From: Escherichia phage phiWec179 | Length of the DNA stretch: 64,000 nt | Reading direction: 5' to 3' (one strand) | Sequence record: LC739533.1 | Shown here: piece by piece, positions 54,306-58,918 of the stretch | Layout of the letters: the number at the start of each line of letters is the position of its first letter | Position numbering within the stretch: position 1 is the first letter of the stretch | The notes under the pieces: generated by a model | Told to the model about the DNA's origin: nothing | Databases searched by the model: none | The model's input: only the letters and a program-made list of their open reading frames with translations | Made by a program: the position numbers and the translations under genes

Positions 54306-55244
54306 ATGAAAGTATTAATCGGTAGTCGTGCGTTGGAAATGATTTGTCGTTCTCGTGGTGTAGAACTGTATCGTGCTTGCGTAGATCTGGATTACCTCTG
54401 CACTGAAGAAGAGTGGCAAGCAGAAGCCCAGAAATTCTCGAAAGATCGTTTCGTAGAAATTGTTGAACGTAAAGGTAACAAAGGGCATATCAAAATGATC
54501 GCGGGCGCTCATCTGGAATATGATATTGCACAACCAGGCGACTCTACAGATGCTTTGATTCAATACATCAAAGAGAATGCAGATCATCTGCCGCGTATTG
54601 GTTATGATGTGGTCGCGCCTTTGGATGTTTTATACCTTCTGAAGATGAGTCACCGTTTTAAGAAGGACAGTCCTCACTTCCTGAAAACAATGAAGGATAT
54701 CCACTTCATGCGTAACCTTGGAGCGAAGATCCCTGAAGAGTTGGAAGATACATACAAACTGCGTCAGAAGGAGTCCTATAATTACGGGCACCCTAATCTG
54801 AACGTGAAAAGTAAAGATTTCTTCAAGGGTGATGAAGTGCCTTATGTGTATGATCACGATAGCCTGCACAGAGTTTTAGCTGTAATGGAGGAACCAGCTT
54901 ACACGAACTACCTAAAGGATGGTAACGAGGTAATGACAAGTAAAGATAAGTTCTATGCTGTTGACGAAACTACCAGATTGCTTGGGGTGTTAGAGGAGAG
55001 TTTGGTTCTGGCTTCGGAAAGGTGTCTAATACCTTTCAACTACAGTGTTACAGGGAAGAAGGCATTTCTTATGGCTTTGACTAAAGTTTGCACTTCTATC
55101 ACATCGGGCTACTTTCGAGAATATGCTTATGAAAAGTTCTTCCTTGTGTGTAAGGTATACGATAATATGTATCCTAACGACGAGTGGGTGGATACGTTAA
55201 GACAAGCCATAGATAAGGGGGCTGTTGATGTATATAAAGCATAA
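54306..55244 (+). CDS. Hypothetical protein, possible nucleotidyltransferase fold
   Basis: N-terminal LIGSRALEM ... CVDLDYL loosely resembles the GS...DxD signature of Pol-beta-type nucleotidyltransferases; weak. Confidence 0.3.
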   Translation: MKVLIGSRALEMICRSRGVELYRACVDLDYLCTEEEWQAEAQKFSKDRFVEIVERKGNKGHIKMIAGAHLEYDIAQPGDSTDALIQYIKENADHLPRIGYDVVAPLDVLYLLKMSHRFKKDSPHFLKTMKDIHFMRNLGAKIPEELEDTYKLRQKESYNYGHPNLNVKSKDFFKGDEVPYVYDHDSLHRVLAVMEEPAYTNYLKDGNEVMTSKDKFYAVDETTRLLGVLEESLVLASERCLIPFNYSVTGKKAFLMALTKVCTSITSGYFREYAYEKFFLVCKVYDNMYPNDEWVDTLRQAIDKGAVDVYKA

Positions 55245-55839
55245 ATATTTAGGAATCACAGACGAAGACTCCAAAGATGGAGAATTCGTCTACACGATCA
55301 CAGCAGCGAATGGATACTACCAGACCCGTATAGGGGGTTTATGGAGAGCTTTAAATGCGCGGGTAGGTAAGGGATCATACACAAACGTATGTGTAGATTT
55401 TAAAGATTTCAAAGAGTTTGCCGAGAGTGTAACAATATTAGCCAATTATAAAACATTAGATAGTTATGGGAACCACTATCACTTAGATAAAGACTTAAAA
55501 TGTTACAAGAAGGATAAATCTTACAACAAAGATTCAGTGCTGTTTATCCCTGGGCACTTAAATACCGCCTTGAAAGGTGTGATCCCTTACTTGGAGTGTG
55601 GGGCTACTTGTGGAGTCAGTTTTAGTAAGATTCGGAATAAGTTTCGAGCCTACTGTAATGATGGCGGTAGTAGACAGATACATTTAGGGTACTTCGAAAG
55701 TAAAGAAGCTGCTCAAAAAGCTTGGGTATTGGAGAAGATAAATCAAATAAAACGTTCCTTAATCAAAGAGAACATCTCGGACGAAGATATTTTGTATTTT
55801 ACGGGTGTTTTGATAAGCGATTTAGAAGGAGGTTATTGA
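55228..55839 (+). CDS. HNH homing endonuclease-like protein with AP2-like domain
   Basis: GNHYHLDKD ... N ... PGHLN HNH-like core plus FRAYCNDGGSRQIHLGYFESKEAAQKAW AP2-type element. Confidence 0.45.
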   Translation: MYIKHKYLGITDEDSKDGEFVYTITAANGYYQTRIGGLWRALNARVGKGSYTNVCVDFKDFKEFAESVTILANYKTLDSYGNHYHLDKDLKCYKKDKSYNKDSVLFIPGHLNTALKGVIPYLECGATCGVSFSKIRNKFRAYCNDGGSRQIHLGYFESKEAAQKAWVLEKINQIKRSLIKENISDEDILYFTGVLISDLEGGY

Positions 55840-55840
55840 T

Positions 55841-56239
55841 ATGGGTTGGTGTGATCAGTCACAAAGTTACTTCAAAGTGACACATGTGGATCTCAACAAG
55901 GCAAGAGTGAAGCTGTTGAGTATTGAAAAAGAAACAGCAGCTATTGACAAACGCCTCCGAGAGAGTAAAGTGGTAATCACTTCTTGGTTCGGACTGAAAC
56001 GTAAAGTCCTCACGCAGCGAGAGCATGTAATTAAAAATATGCATGGTTGGGCTTGGTTCCACGACATGGCAAAACACCTGGGGTACATTTCTACTGAAGA
56101 ACACGACCTCTTGGAGCTACGTTATCGCCTTCCAGATGTAGAAGATTTAGATTTGTGGATCAGTTCCGAACAAATCTTCTTAACCGAGAGCGATTGGAAG
56201 AAAGTCAATATTTGTCTTAAATGGAGGGAGAATGAGTAA
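55841..56239 (+). CDS. Hypothetical protein
   Basis: 132 aa; coupled start. Confidence 0.45.
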   Translation: MGWCDQSQSYFKVTHVDLNKARVKLLSIEKETAAIDKRLRESKVVITSWFGLKRKVLTQREHVIKNMHGWAWFHDMAKHLGYISTEEHDLLELRYRLPDVEDLDLWISSEQIFLTESDWKKVNICLKWRENE

Positions 56240-56915
56240 AGTAGTTTTATCAACATTTGATGGATCTGGGATCATGGTACTTCGTTACGCAGAAGCGGGA
56301 CATAAATGCTATTGTGTAAATGCTGACGAAGGTGATCACGGGGCTTATGAAGTTCGCATGGAACATCCTAACATCACTTACGTGAACGCATGGATTGATT
56401 CCAACTTCAACCCTGAAGATTACGGTATTCCTAAGCCAGATATTATCTTTGGCTTCCCTCCATGTACCATGCTTGCTGGTTGCGGTAGTAAGCACGAACG
56501 TAGCGCAGAAGAGTTGGAAGAAGCTTTGGCTAACATTCGTATCGTGGAAGCTTTAGGAAATAAATACAACGTTCCGTGGATGATTGAGAATCCGGTGGGT
56601 AAACTGTCAACATTGTGGCGTAAACCGGATTTCTATTTCGATCCTTACGAATATGGCGGATATCTGTTTGATGAAGAAGGCAGCTTCCACCCTAAAATGC
56701 CTACCCGTGACGGTTACACAAAGAAAACCTGTATTTGGCATGGCAATGGTTTTGTTAAGCCTGTGAAGAAGCCTGTGGAACATATTGGTTGCTTCTGGGG
56801 CTGGAAAAGTTTAGGCGGAGCAAGTGCGAAAACAAAGCAACTCCGATCGTTAACTGCTCGCGGTTTTGCTCGTGCTGTGTTTTTATCTAACAACCTTTTA
56901 GATAAGGAGGAATGA
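56232..56915 (+). CDS. DNA cytosine-5 methyltransferase-like protein (compact)
   Basis: Motif I-like FDGSG, motif IV GFPPCT (Pro-Cys), motif VI ENPVG, in canonical order. Confidence 0.5.
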   Translation: MSKVVLSTFDGSGIMVLRYAEAGHKCYCVNADEGDHGAYEVRMEHPNITYVNAWIDSNFNPEDYGIPKPDIIFGFPPCTMLAGCGSKHERSAEELEEALANIRIVEALGNKYNVPWMIENPVGKLSTLWRKPDFYFDPYEYGGYLFDEEGSFHPKMPTRDGYTKKTCIWHGNGFVKPVKKPVEHIGCFWGWKSLGGASAKTKQLRSLTARGFARAVFLSNNLLDKEE

Positions 56916-57580
56916 TGACCCATTTAAAACCTTTTGGTGGAAAACCTATTGTGGCGTATCAAGTAGATCGTGATGATTGGGAAGGCAGTGTAGTTGTCTT
57001 TGGTAATCATTTCTTTGCTGTGCGTCGTAAAGGCGCAAGCATGTTAGATTGTGAGGAGGAGTATTGTCATGTCTCCCGTGCCAAAGAATTCGACCAGTAT
57101 GTAGAAAAAGGTTTTGTGCCTGTCAAAGCTTTACTGGAGGCAGGATGGTGGATACACTCTGCTCATGATGGTGTTAGACTTGACGAGTCTGTAGATAGTC
57201 TTGAGGCAGATTTTGACGAATGTGAAGATGGCATGTATATTGAGGGGGATCTTGTATTTTCCCTTGACGAGAAAAGTGTGTGGAAGAACTGGGAAGAAAT
57301 GGAACGTCACGCGCATTTTATCAATGATGCTTTGATTCGTAAAGCTTGGTTCACGGAGGCGGTGAAGGTAGCGTATCCGCAATTCACCTTTACAGAGGTT
57401 TGGGGCGGTCCACACCACATCACCCATACAGCATTTTTCGACTTCCCTGGTTCACGTTACAAAGGTAATGTAATGTGGGACTGGGATGAGAATGAAGTAC
57501 CATCTGTTCAAGACTTTCGTTGTTATGTTTGCCAAGGCGATCAAGAAGCCCTTGACAAATACCTGCAAAGTCTGGTATAG
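56912..57580 (+). CDS. Hypothetical protein
   Basis: 222 aa; ATGA-coupled. Confidence 0.45.
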   Translation: MMTHLKPFGGKPIVAYQVDRDDWEGSVVVFGNHFFAVRRKGASMLDCEEEYCHVSRAKEFDQYVEKGFVPVKALLEAGWWIHSAHDGVRLDESVDSLEADFDECEDGMYIEGDLVFSLDEKSVWKNWEEMERHAHFINDALIRKAWFTEAVKVAYPQFTFTEVWGGPHHITHTAFFDFPGSRYKGNVMWDWDENEVPSVQDFRCYVCQGDQEALDKYLQSLV

Positions 57581-57638: not shown

Positions 57639-58133
57639 ATGTTTCAAGTAGAAATTCATGTGCACAACAGTTGTTCAAATTGCGAAACTTGTGGTTACAA
57701 TAGTTCAACCATGATCACTGTTAGCGGAGACTTAGGACATGCCAAGTTTGGCGAAGTCGCAAGCTGCTTCAGCGGAGAGGATGCAGATTGGCATGATATT
57801 GCTTTGTGGCTATGCGGAAGACTGAATGTAAATTGTAAAGACTTCCCTGAACTGTTGAGCCGAAATCTTATTGATAGTCGGGAACAAGCCTACAATATTT
57901 ATGCCGCTTCTGTTTATGTTGATCATAAATGGGTAGAAGATGAAGAAGCTGAACGTTTGCTGCGCCTCTACTACGAAGCAGAGGAAGCTTATGATAACTA
58001 TTATAGCATGTCCAACATTCTACGCTTGTTTGCAGAGTTTGATATTTACTTTGAAGTGAGTTATTCTGAAGAGGAAGTGTATGATTTTGATGACGATGAT
58101 TACGAGGAGGATGAAGAATGCCAAGACGATTAA
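57639..58133 (+). CDS. Hypothetical Cys-containing acidic protein
   Basis: Start set to ATG 57639 after RBS GGGAGGAAA; C-terminal poly-acidic tail. Confidence 0.4.
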   Translation: MFQVEIHVHNSCSNCETCGYNSSTMITVSGDLGHAKFGEVASCFSGEDADWHDIALWLCGRLNVNCKDFPELLSRNLIDSREQAYNIYAASVYVDHKWVEDEEAERLLRLYYEAEEAYDNYYSMSNILRLFAEFDIYFEVSYSEEEVYDFDDDDYEEDEECQDD

Positions 58134-58918
58134 TAGTGATCAGCGGTGCTGGTCTAAGCGCCGATAGCGGTGTACGTACTTTCCGCACTGATACAGATAG
58201 CGGGAAAGCTTTGTGGGATGAATACGACCTTTCTGAAGTGTGCGATATTTTCAATTTCCGTGCTGGCTACCAGCAAGAACAATGTGTTCCTGGCGCTGCT
58301 GGTGGATTAGATGCAGAGGGATACAACCTCTACCGTAAAACTCACGACTTCTACAATAAACGTCGCGTAGAGATGGATAGTGTGTCTCCTAACGCTGCGC
58401 ATTACCAGATCGCAGAGTGGTTCCAAGAGTACGGCTGCGATCGTGTTATCAACATCACAACAAACGTAGATGATCTTCTGGAACAAGCAGGGGTTGTTCA
58501 TGAAGATGTTCTGCATGTTCACGGCTTCCTGCCTGAAGTGATTGTAGACAATAGAATCATCAAGGATGTTGGTTATGCTGCTATTGATGTAGATGATTAC
58601 AAGTATGTGAAGCCCAATGTAGTGTTCTTTGGGGAGACTGCCCCACTGTATAACGATATGTACCACATCTTAGACGGCTTGACGGCTCAAGATATGGTGG
58701 TTGTAGTGGGCTGCTCTAATCAAGTGATCAACTTCAACTGGGATTTGTTCCCAGCCCTCAACATAGGAACAAAGATGGTCGTAGTTAATCCTGGGGTTAA
58801 TTACGAAGAAACACTTCTCTATGAAGATCGTGGAGTTTTTGTTTACCGAGAAAAAGCTGCAACAGCCTTCAGTAATGAAGGTTTCATTAAAATGATCGAA
58901 GACCACTTAAACAAATAA
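58118..58918 (+). CDS. Sir2-family (sirtuin-like) NAD-dependent protein
   Basis: ISGAGLSADSGVRTFR, VLHVHG, VVFFGE; no obvious Zn-binding Cys tetrad. Confidence 0.6.
   Translation: MPRRLIVISGAGLSADSGVRTFRTDTDSGKALWDEYDLSEVCDIFNFRAGYQQEQCVPGAAGGLDAEGYNLYRKTHDFYNKRRVEMDSVSPNAAHYQIAEWFQEYGCDRVINITTNVDDLLEQAGVVHEDVLHVHGFLPEVIVDNRIIKDVGYAAIDVDDYKYVKPNVVFFGETAPLYNDMYHILDGLTAQDMVVVVGCSNQVINFNWDLFPALNIGTKMVVVNPGVNYEETLLYEDRGVFVYREKAATAFSNEGFIKMIEDHLNK

What the first reader, a model, noticed from the sequence alone, without database searches (positions are those of the whole stretch)
56232..56915. Unusually small cytosine-5 methyltransferase-like protein
The ORF has motif I (FDGSG), the Pro-Cys catalytic motif IV (GFPPCT) and motif VI (ENPVG) in canonical order but is only 227 aa, well below typical C5-MTases and without an obvious target-recognition domain. 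It could be a minimal C5-MTase, a pyrimidine-modifying enzyme acting at nucleotide level, or an inactive relic.
Basis: partly seen in the sequence, partly recalled or inferred. Interest (0 to 1): 0.45.

Follow-up and report, generated by a model that had tools for sequence, protein, structure and literature searches.

The report
Small phage Dcm-like cytosine methyltransferase
This gene encodes a compact, single-domain DNA cytosine-5 methyltransferase of a large phage family that is already annotated and has a tested relative, so it is a real enzyme gene but an ordinary one.

Summary
The window is a Phapecoctavirus, 100% identical here to Escherichia phages phiWec181 and phiWec186.

The protein is a full-length member of PHROG 757 ("DNA methyltransferase", E 1e-82). 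Homologues occur in 1,489 phage records and form 924 clusters at 50% identity, nearly all 200-260 aa. The small size is therefore a family trait, not a truncation. Cys78 and Glu119 are invariant across 93 diverse members.

The protein has no target-recognition domain and no motif X, and motif VIII QxRxR is replaced by Y-x-K-x-T.

A 50%-identical homologue, phage K42/KarlJaspers Dcm, has been tested: it raises 5mC on retron Ec86 msDNA, a C82/E128/K175/K176 mutant does not, and a CCTGG site is required. All four residues are conserved here. Phages KP36 (59% identity) and AAS23 (53%) carry homologues and have EcoRII-resistant DNA.

Verdict: an active orphan DNA C5-methyltransferase, probably CCWGG-specific and anti-restriction. 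Already known; low interest.

The parts
56232..56915 (+). CDS of the 227-aa small Dcm-like DNA cytosine-5 methyltransferase (stop codon included)
   Evidence: ORF list and sequence. PHROG 757 at E 1.1e-82. 100% identical in phiWec181/186 and PsgM04F.
56223..56228 (+). Shine-Dalgarno-like GGAGGG, 3 nt upstream of the ATG (GGAGG core with a 4-nt spacer)
   Evidence: Read directly from the sequence. Its function is inferred.
56256..56270 (+). Motif I (F9-D-G-S-G13), the loop after strand beta1 that binds AdoMet
   Evidence: hhalign aligns it to the canonical DLFaGiGG motif. The family consensus is F-D-x-[TS]-G. The AlphaFold model has beta1 at 4-8 followed by a helix at 14-21.
56451..56468 (+). 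Motif IV (G74-F-P-P-C78-T79) with the catalytic nucleophile Cys78
   Evidence: C78 is invariant, and F75 and P76 are at least 90% conserved, in 93 members. hhalign aligns it to the canonical FPCQ. It is equivalent to C82 of phage K42 Dcm.
56586..56600 (+). Motif VI (E119-N-P-V-G123); Glu119 is the counterpart of the ENV glutamate
   Evidence: E119 is invariant, and N120 and P121 are at least 96% conserved. hhalign aligns it to the canonical ENV. It is equivalent to E128 of K42 Dcm.
56715..56738 (+). Motif VIII-equivalent segment Y162-T-K164-K165-T166-C-I-W169 at the start of strand beta7; it replaces the canonical QxRxR
   Evidence: Y162 and W169 are invariant; K164 and T166 are each 92 of 93. 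The strand spans 166-171 in the model. A greedy hhalign places it opposite PQnRERvfiVg at low confidence. K164 and K165 equal K175 and K176 of K42 Dcm.
56739..56843 (+). Short variable segment (aa 170-204) in the place where canonical enzymes carry the target-recognition domain
   Evidence: It is about 35 aa, against roughly 100 aa or more in canonical enzymes. It contains the family-specific conserved residues G171, G173, F174 and P177. A role in DNA recognition is inferred.
56844..56882 (+). C-terminal motif R205-S-L-T-A-R-G-F-A-R-A-V-F217 (family consensus RSxTPRGFAxAVF). It resembles motif IX (RxLTPRExARLxGF) and starts the terminal helix. No GN(S/A)V motif X follows.
   Evidence: R205 is invariant, and S206, P209, G211 and A215 are at least 90% conserved. 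Compare the Dcm and HhaI motif IX sequences printed and the second hhalign alignment. Helices span 199-206 and 210-224 in the model.

Best explanation
The gene encodes an active, stand-alone (orphan) S-adenosylmethionine-dependent DNA cytosine-5 methyltransferase. It belongs to the small phage 'Dcm-like' family, PHROG 757. The protein is essentially a bare C5-MTase catalytic domain. Cys78 (motif IV) attacks C6 of a flipped-out cytosine, Glu119 (motif VI) activates the ring, and a methyl group passes from AdoMet to C5. Lys164 and Lys165, with other family-specific residues, take over the DNA and base contacts that the canonical motif VIII arginines make. By analogy with tested relatives, the target is most probably the inner cytosine of CCWGG, the site of E. 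coli Dcm. The enzyme is made during infection and methylates replicating phage DNA. That DNA is then protected from EcoRII-type, CCWGG-cutting restriction enzymes whatever the host's own Dcm does. As a side effect it could be sensed by retron Ec86, which fires when its msDNA is methylated by such phage enzymes. Shown here or in cited papers: the gene, the family, the conservation, the fold, homology to canonical enzymes, and 5mC formation by a 50%-identical relative. Inferred: activity and CCWGG specificity of this particular orthologue, the anti-restriction role, and how sequence is read without a TRD.
Against: Nothing has been measured for this protein, which is only 50-59% identical to the relatives with data. 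C5-MTase specificity can change over such distances. The CCWGG assignment for the family is indirect. The retron study took it from E. coli Dcm and supported it by mutating the msDNA motif, which could also affect effector binding. The EcoRII gels were run on phages grown in hosts that may have their own Dcm. Phage T1 lacks the gene (no tblastn hit) and does not avoid CCWGG either, at 83 observed against 71-100 expected. The site statistics therefore do not discriminate. The BASEL study found no simple link between phage MTase genes and restriction resistance. The protein departs from canonical enzymes in features usually considered essential. The QxRxR arginines are replaced, there is no motif X, and Pfam PF00145 gives no hit even at E 10.
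Confidence: 0.78

Rival explanations
1. It is an active DNA C5-methyltransferase, but this Phapecoctavirus orthologue has a different or more relaxed sequence specificity than CCWGG. Without a TRD it might read only 2-3 bases, as GpC- or CpG-type enzymes do.
For: The protein has no TRD and only about 35 residues of variable region. It is only 50-59% identical to relatives with data. Its catalytic-loop region is about 5 residues shorter than the family consensus, and the near-invariant K92 is Ala in this protein, although the alignment there is uncertain. The CCWGG evidence in relatives is indirect.
Against: KP36 gp74 shares the same short-loop subtype and is the closest relative with data, and its DNA resists EcoRII yet is cut by EcoRV, EcoRI and NsiI. 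The restriction panel used on AAS23 included HhaI, Csp6I and other enzymes, and the authors concluded only Dam and Dcm methylation, which argues against broad specificity. The window avoids CCSGG, CCGG and GGCC strongly but not CCWGG.
Confidence: 0.13
2. It uses the C5-MTase mechanism to install something other than a methyl group, for example carboxymethyl from Cx-SAM as CmoX does. Alternatively it acts on free nucleotides or RNA rather than on DNA.
Against: LC-MS on the K42 homologue detected C5-methylcytosine. The CmoX signature is SPPC plus Arg350 in motif X, with neighbouring CmoA and CmoY genes. Here motif IV is FPPC, there is no motif X, and the neighbouring ORFs match only unknown-function, HNH and Sir2 PHROGs. 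Homologue-bearing phages show site-specific rather than global effects on restriction.
Confidence: 0.03
3. It is one subunit of a split methyltransferase, like M.AquI or M.EcoHK31I. On this reading it needs a separately encoded partner to supply DNA recognition or motifs IX-X, for example the overlapping downstream ORF 56912-57580.
For: The protein is small and has no TRD or motif X. Its stop overlaps the start of a 222-aa ORF of unknown function, PHROG 8514. Split C5-MTases do exist in phages: Pmask genes 88 and 87 were seen in passing.
Against: No neighbour is conserved across the phage families that carry the gene. The flanking genes are small hypothetical proteins in Sd1, a helicase and an HNH endonuclease in StarDew, a homing endonuclease in HeinrichReichert, and different small ORFs in KP36, AAS23 and KarlJaspers. 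K42 Dcm expressed alone from a plasmid was sufficient to methylate msDNA and trigger the retron.
Confidence: 0.03
4. It is a catalytically dead relic, or a DNA-binding or regulatory protein that only keeps the MTase fold.
For: Pfam and NCBIfam fail to recognise it. The motif VIII arginines and motif X are missing. At the usual acidic motif II position this protein has Asn30, where 89 of 93 family members have Asp.
Against: The catalytic Cys and Glu are invariant in 93 diverse members. The Asn30 variant is shared by K42/KarlJaspers Dcm, which is active, and by KP36 and AAS23. The family is widespread and conserved in length. A catalytic-residue mutant of the homologue loses function.
Confidence: 0.02

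Closest known systems
Phage K42 / KarlJaspers (Bas06) 'Dcm-like C5 cytosine methyltransferase', the trigger of retron Ec86 (bioRxiv 10.1101/2023.08.16.553469)
   Same: It belongs to the same family and has the same single-domain architecture (236 against 227 aa). It is 50% identical over the full length at E 3e-70. The catalytic and substrate residues C82, E128, K175 and K176 correspond to C78, E119, K164 and K165. In both, the predicted structure superposes best on DNMT3-type domains.
   Different: It comes from a different phage family (Drexlerviridae siphovirus against a Phapecoctavirus myovirus). The window protein has a catalytic-loop region about 5 residues shorter and a different sequence in the 170-204 segment. 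Neither activity nor retron triggering has been tested for the window protein.
Klebsiella phage KP36 gp74 and Pantoea phage AAS23 gp52 (Drexlerviridae small 'DNA cytosine methyltransferases')
   Same: They are 59% and 53% identical over the full length. KP36 gp74 shares the short-loop subtype. Both phage DNAs are reported to resist EcoRII, which indicates Dcm-type methylation.
   Different: The evidence there is correlative: restriction gels with no gene knock-out, in hosts that may have Dcm. The KP36 authors did not recognise gp74 as a cytosine MTase and credited the host.
E. coli Dcm / M.EcoRII (canonical CCWGG C5-MTases, Pfam PF00145)
   Same: The chemistry is probably the same and the target site probably the same. 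Motifs I, IV and VI are homologous. A motif IX-like R..TPR..A segment is present.
   Different: Dcm is 472 aa, with a large TRD, QxRxR in motif VIII and GNSV in motif X. The window protein has none of these and does not hit PF00145. No Vsr partner gene lies nearby.
DNMT3A/DNMT3B catalytic domains (eukaryotic de novo C5-MTases)
   Different: The DNMT3 domain is about 280 aa, keeps motifs VIII-X, and works as a dimer or tetramer with regulatory domains. Sequence identity is only 13-20%. The oligomeric state of the phage protein is unknown.
M.HhaI / M.HaeIII (textbook bacterial C5-MTases)
   Different: They are about 325-330 aa with a separate small domain (TRD plus motif IX) and a motif X helix. 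Sequence-only searches barely see the relationship (HaeIII E 0.45).
CmoX, phage DNA cytosine C5-carboxymethyltransferase (PMC12783734)
   Different: CmoX is over 330 aa, has SPPC and a motif X arginine that binds Cx-SAM, and is encoded next to CmoA and CmoY. None of these features is present here.

Membership tests
Small phage Dcm-like C5-MTase family (PHROG 757; K42/KarlJaspers Dcm type) | Full-length sequence match to the family profile | tested here: met
   PHROG 757 at E 1.1e-82; residues 1-223 match profile positions 13-221 of 247.
Small phage Dcm-like C5-MTase family (PHROG 757; K42/KarlJaspers Dcm type) | Homology to the experimentally studied member over the whole length | tested here: met
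   50% identity at E 3e-70 to KarlJaspers bas06_0055, the 711-bp gene described for K42. Also 59% to KP36 gp74 and 53% to AAS23 gp52.
Small phage Dcm-like C5-MTase family (PHROG 757; K42/KarlJaspers Dcm type) | Conservation of the residues whose mutation abolishes activity (C82, E128, K175, K176) | tested here: met
   The pairwise alignment places them at C78, E119, K164 and K165. C78 and E119 are invariant and K164 is 92 of 93 in the family alignment.
Small phage Dcm-like C5-MTase family (PHROG 757; K42/KarlJaspers Dcm type) | Single-domain architecture of about 200-260 aa ending in RSxTPRGFAxAVFxAN | tested here: met
   The protein is 227 aa with the C-terminal sequence RSLTARGFARAVFLSN. See the lengths of the 150 best representatives and the family consensus.
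Small phage Dcm-like C5-MTase family (PHROG 757; K42/KarlJaspers Dcm type) | Formation of 5-methylcytosine in DNA, at CCWGG | not testable with these tools
   Only literature on relatives is available. It needs bisulfite, EM-seq or nanopore sequencing, or an enzyme assay.
Canonical DNA (cytosine-5) methyltransferases (Pfam PF00145; M.HhaI / Dcm / DNMT) | Match to Pfam PF00145 at or above the gathering score | tested here: not met
   No Pfam hit even at E 10. Only 2 of 93 family members reach E about 1e-3. NCBIfam gives none.
Canonical DNA (cytosine-5) methyltransferases (Pfam PF00145; M.HhaI / Dcm / DNMT) | Motif I FxGxG, motif IV Pro-Cys and motif VI ENV, in this order and homologous by profile comparison | tested here: met
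   F9-D-G-S-G13, P77-C78 and E119-N120-P121. hhalign against seven canonical enzymes gives 91.8% probability and E 7.5e-7 over residues 3-127.
Canonical DNA (cytosine-5) methyltransferases (Pfam PF00145; M.HhaI / Dcm / DNMT) | Motif VIII QxRxR (arginines contacting the flipped cytosine and the backbone) | tested here: not met
   No QxRxR occurs after motif VI. The corresponding strand start reads Y162-T-K164-K-T166, which is invariant or nearly so in the family. Q152, R154 and R156 are invariant in the canonical alignment.
Canonical DNA (cytosine-5) methyltransferases (Pfam PF00145; M.HhaI / Dcm / DNMT) | Target-recognition domain between motifs VIII and IX | tested here: not met
   About 35 residues (aa 170-204) lie between the strand and the motif IX-like segment. 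The Q-to-R spacing is 111 residues in the first sequence of A2 and longer in others.
Canonical DNA (cytosine-5) methyltransferases (Pfam PF00145; M.HhaI / Dcm / DNMT) | Motif IX (RxLTPRExARLQGFP) | tested here: inconclusive
   R205-S-L-T-A-R-G-F-A-R resembles it, and a secondary hhalign alignment pairs the two, but at a probability below 1% on its own.
Canonical DNA (cytosine-5) methyltransferases (Pfam PF00145; M.HhaI / Dcm / DNMT) | Motif X (GN[SA]V plus a helix closing the AdoMet pocket) | tested here: not met
   The protein ends 10 residues after F217 and no GN[SA]V is present. G293 and N294 are invariant in canonical enzymes. Whether the terminal helix at 210-224 occupies the same position could not be checked, because no model coordinates are available.
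Canonical DNA (cytosine-5) methyltransferases (Pfam PF00145; M.HhaI / Dcm / DNMT) | C5-MTase catalytic-domain fold | tested here: met
CmoX-type cytosine C5-carboxymethyltransferases | SPPC motif, Cx-SAM-binding Arg in motif X, and CmoA/CmoY genes nearby | tested here: not met
   Motif IV is FPPC and there is no motif X. The neighbouring ORFs match only unknown-function, HNH and Sir2 PHROGs.
Split (two-subunit) C5-MTases such as M.AquI / M.EcoHK31I | A conserved adjacent gene encoding the complementary subunit | tested here: not met
   The neighbours differ in every phage lineage examined. The homologue works when expressed alone.

The most novel reading that the evidence does not exclude
The family may be the smallest natural sequence-specific DNA C5-methyltransferase. 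On this reading it recognises a 5-bp site (CCWGG) with no TRD, no motif X and no motif VIII arginines. Recognition would instead rely on the catalytic loop, the roughly 35-residue segment after strand beta7, the invariant Arg205 and perhaps DNMT3-like dimerisation across the pseudo-palindrome. That would be a recognition mode not yet described structurally for bacterial or phage C5-MTases.
Probability: 0.35. Interest if true: 0.5.

Novelty: already known. Interest (0 to 1): 0.2.

Why it matters
For this window the result is mainly an annotation fix. The gene is labelled "hypothetical protein" in phiWec181 and phiWec186, and should be a Dcm-like DNA cytosine-5 methyltransferase, as it already is in related records.

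Biologically, it adds self-methylation of CCWGG to this phage's counter-restriction measures, alongside its extreme avoidance of other restriction sites. It also predicts that such phages could be detected by retron Ec86-type systems that sense phage Dcm activity.

More generally, the family is a compact enzyme of about 225 aa that Pfam does not see. Its means of reading DNA sequence is unsolved, which is of moderate interest to methyltransferase specialists and to people who want small epigenome-editing modules.

Tried and rejected
1. Pfam and NCBIfam scans of the protein gave nothing. A Pfam scan of 93 family members gave only two marginal PF00145 hits.

2. Sequence and profile searches of the PDB gave only marginal N-terminal matches: HaeIII at E 0.45 and DNMT2 at E 0.23. 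hhalign against a single Dcm sequence was also weak. A seven-sequence canonical profile was needed to reach significance.

3. I considered a partner-subunit (split enzyme) model. I compared gene neighbourhoods in nepoznato, Sd1, StarDew, HeinrichReichert, AAS23, KP36 and KarlJaspers and found no conserved neighbour, so I rejected it.

4. I considered a Cx-SAM carboxymethyltransferase (CmoX-like) reading, because CmoX is a good fold match and E. coli makes Cx-SAM. The signature residues and partner genes are absent, and LC-MS on a homologue found 5mC, so I rejected it as unsupported.

5. I tried CCWGG site statistics as a test of specificity. The contrast within the window is striking. However, phage T1, which lacks the gene, does not avoid CCWGG either. 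The test does not discriminate, and I did not extend it to more genomes.

6. I scanned ten longer family members for extra domains that might hint at targeting. One had an HNH_2 domain and one a sub-threshold HTH, which was uninformative.

7. Residue-level questions could not be answered, because the model's coordinates are not exposed. These include which residue replaces HhaI Arg165 or Asn304, and where the terminal helix packs. The mapping of motifs VIII, IX and X therefore rests on secondary-structure register and sequence resemblance only.

Full report
**Observation.**
- FDGSG is at aa 9-13, GFPPCT at aa 74-79 (Cys78) and ENPVG at aa 119-123.
- A GGAGGG Shine-Dalgarno-like sequence precedes the ATG.
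- The gene overlaps both its upstream ORF (55841..56239) and its downstream ORF (56912..57580), so it lies in a compact + strand operon.
- The region is 100% identical to Escherichia phages phiWec181 and phiWec186. It is 77-98% identical to other Phapecoctavirus genomes such as nepoznato, ESCO13 and phAPEC8 variants.
- In those records the gene is variously labelled "hypothetical protein", "DNA methyltransferase", "Dcm" or "putative site-specific DNA methylase".

**Family.** Pfam and NCBIfam do not recognise the protein at all, but PHROGs does.
- It matches PHROG 757, "DNA methyltransferase", at E 1.1e-82 over the full length.
- tblastn finds relatives in 1,489 of 50,697 phage records. Most cover more than 80% of the query. 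They span Drexlerviridae (including Webervirus), Dhillonvirus, Vequintavirus, Phapecoctavirus and others.
- An exhaustive HMMER search of 1.84 billion representatives finds 924 clusters at 50% identity. Nearly all full-length ones are 200-260 aa.
- The 90%-clustered database shows the same uniform length, with a few prophage copies named "DNA cytosine methyltransferase".
- The small size is therefore the conserved architecture of a large family, not a truncation.

**Conservation.** I aligned 93 members that are only 32-57% identical to the query.
- Invariant: Cys78, Gly85, Glu119, Pro138, Tyr162, Trp169, Pro177 and Arg205.
- At least 90% conserved: Phe75, Pro76, Asn120, Pro121, Lys164, Thr166, Ser206, Pro209, Gly211 and Ala215.
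- The catalytic Cys of motif IV and the Glu of motif VI are thus under strict selection, which argues against an inactive relic.
- The family also has its own C-terminal signature, RSxTPRGFAxAVFxAN.

**Relation to canonical C5-MTases.** Sequence-only searches barely see the link: HaeIII at E 0.45 and DNMT2 at E 0.23.
- I built a small canonical profile, alignment A2, from E. coli Dcm and six phage PF00145-type enzymes of 303-472 aa.
- hhalign of the family against it gives 91.8% probability and E 7.5e-7 over residues 3-127. It pairs F9 with the FxGxG Phe, P77-C78 with the canonical PC, and E119-N120 with ENV.
- Beyond motif VI the alignment is unreliable.
- A published HHpred run on the 53%-identical AAS23 gp52 reported 99.7% probability to PDB 3ME5.

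**Fold.** AlphaFold2 with the family alignment gives a confident model: pLDDT 91.9 and pTM 0.90, with seven strands and flanking helices typical of a class I methyltransferase.
- Foldseek likewise puts DNMT3A and DNMT3B first at E about 1e-7.

**Anatomy and departures from the canon.** Motifs I, IV and VI are present.
- Where canonical enzymes have QxRxR at the start of strand beta7, this family has Y162-x-K164-x-T166. This mapping comes from strand register and a low-confidence greedy alignment.
- About 35 residues (aa 170-204) follow before a segment that resembles motif IX. Compare R205-S-L-T-A-R-G-F-A-R with RRLTPRECARL in Dcm and RKLHPRECARV in HhaI.
- The protein ends one helix later. 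There is no TRD and no GN(S/A)V motif X.
- I could not inspect model coordinates. Which residues replace the canonical Arg and Asn contacts, and whether the terminal helix sits where the motif X helix does, remain inferences.

**Experimental evidence on relatives.**
- *Retron Ec86 study* (bioRxiv 10.1101/2023.08.16.553469):
  - Escape mutants of phage K42, a strain of KarlJaspers/Bas06, all disrupt a 711-bp dcm gene.
  - Expressing it alone is toxic only when the retron is present.
  - LC-MS shows high 5mC on msDNA with the wild-type gene but not with a C82A/E128A/K175A/K176A mutant.
  - Changing the msDNA CCTGG site abolishes defence.
  - 34 of 35 Ec86-sensitive phages encode such a Dcm.
  - I fetched KarlJaspers. 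Its bas06_0055 is exactly 711 bp and 50% identical to the window protein over the full length (E 3e-70). C82, E128, K175 and K176 align with C78, E119, K164 and K165.
- *Klebsiella phage KP36:* its DNA has 155 EcoRII sites but is not cut by EcoRII, whereas podovirus KP34 from the same study is cut. The authors saw no phage cytosine MTase gene and credited the host. KP36 gp74 is in fact a 59%-identical family member.
- *Pantoea phage AAS23:* its DNA is reported as Dcm-methylated, and its gp52 is 53% identical. Pantoea phage MED16, in which only Dam and DpdA modification genes were found, is cut by EcoRII.
- Together these make a DNA C5-MTase with Dcm-like (CCWGG) specificity the best-supported function. 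None of them tests this orthologue, and the specificity evidence is indirect.

**Context.**
- No neighbouring gene is conserved across the lineages that carry the gene. In the window the neighbours are unknown-function PHROGs, an HNH-like ORF and a Sir2-like protein. This argues against a split enzyme or an R-M operon. The gene is an orphan methyltransferase.
- The window avoids many restriction sites to an extreme degree. CTAG is 0 against 186±11 in shuffles, CCSGG is 0 against 38±6, and GGWCC, CCGG, GGCC and many 6-bp palindromes are strongly depleted.
- CCWGG is slightly enriched, at 94 against 75±8. That fits a site protected by methylation.
- Phage T1 lacks the gene and does not avoid CCWGG either, so I treat this only as consistent, not as evidence of specificity.

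**Alternatives.**
- A different or relaxed specificity remains possible (about 0.13).
- A CmoX-like carboxymethyltransferase or a non-DNA substrate is unlikely. The CmoX signature and partner genes are absent, and 5mC was the product seen for the homologue.
- The split-enzyme and dead-relic models are contradicted by the lack of a conserved partner, by activity of the homologue expressed alone, and by invariant catalytic residues.

**Verdict.**
- The gene is a routine member of an already annotated family with an experimentally tested member, so novelty is "already known" and interest is low.
- The open point is mechanistic. It is not known how a catalytic domain of about 225 aa, without a TRD, motif X or the motif VIII arginines, achieves sequence specificity. 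The DNMT3-like structural resemblance suggests oligomerisation as one possibility, and this would need structures or biochemistry to settle.

Noticed in passing
window 1-64000: The window avoids restriction sites to an extreme degree. CTAG occurs 0 times against 186+-11 in dinucleotide-preserving shuffles. CCSGG occurs 0 times against 38+-6. GGWCC, CCGG and GGCC are 3-4 fold depleted. Many 6-bp palindromes (CAGCTG, CTGCAG, CACGTG, CGTACG, CTCGAG and others) are absent although 3-13 copies are expected. GATC, CCWGG and GCWGC are not avoided.
   Followed up: partly
window 58118-58918 (+): A 266-aa Sir2-like protein (PHROG 2162, E 6e-101) is encoded 1.2 kb downstream in the same operon. A phage-borne Sir2/NAD-dependent deacetylase homologue may be a counter-defence or NAD-metabolism gene.
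   Followed up: no
window 55225-55839 (+): A 204-aa ORF with a TTG start matches only the C-terminal parts of HNH endonuclease PHROGs (for example positions 202-376 of 420). The related phage nepoznato has an annotated HNH endonuclease at the equivalent place. It is possibly a degraded or truncated homing endonuclease.
   Followed up: no
window 56912-57580 (+): A 222-aa ORF of unknown function (PHROG 8514) has a start codon that overlaps the methyltransferase stop (ATGATGA). It is conserved next to the gene within Phapecoctavirus but not in other phage families.
   Followed up: partly
hits H5/H26 (OR584014.1) and 36 'Campylobacter' phage records: 'Pseudomonas phage PsgM04F' is 98% identical in DNA to E. 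coli Phapecoctavirus genomes and encodes a 100% identical protein. Several 'Campylobacter phage' records of about 44 kb carry a coliphage-like copy at about 53% identity. The host labels in these records look doubtful, perhaps from contamination or mis-assignment.
   Followed up: no
L007 (Klebsiella phage KP36) 47552-48244 (-): The 2013 KP36 paper states that the phage has no cytosine methyltransferase and attributes its EcoRII resistance to the host. The genome does encode a 230-aa member of this family (gp74, FPSC variant of motif IV), which offers a simpler explanation.
   Followed up: yes
L014 (Mycobacterium phage Pmask) 1144-1674 and 1835-2146; L015 (Bacillus phage Bcp1) 409-1074: Other short or split C5-MTase genes turned up while collecting canonical enzymes. 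Pmask genes 88 and 87 are two adjacent 'DNA methylase' ORFs of 176 and 103 aa next to a ParB-like gene. Bcp1_133 is a 221-aa 'C-5 cytosine-specific DNA methylase I' lying between two further C-5 methylase genes, Bcp1_132 (only partly in the locus) and the 327-aa Bcp1_134.
   Followed up: no
protein P0248 (348 aa, metagenomic family member): One family member carries a C-terminal HNH_2 endonuclease domain (PF13391, E 6e-8) fused to the small methyltransferase. This may be a fused modification-nuclease protein or a homing-endonuclease insertion.
   Followed up: no
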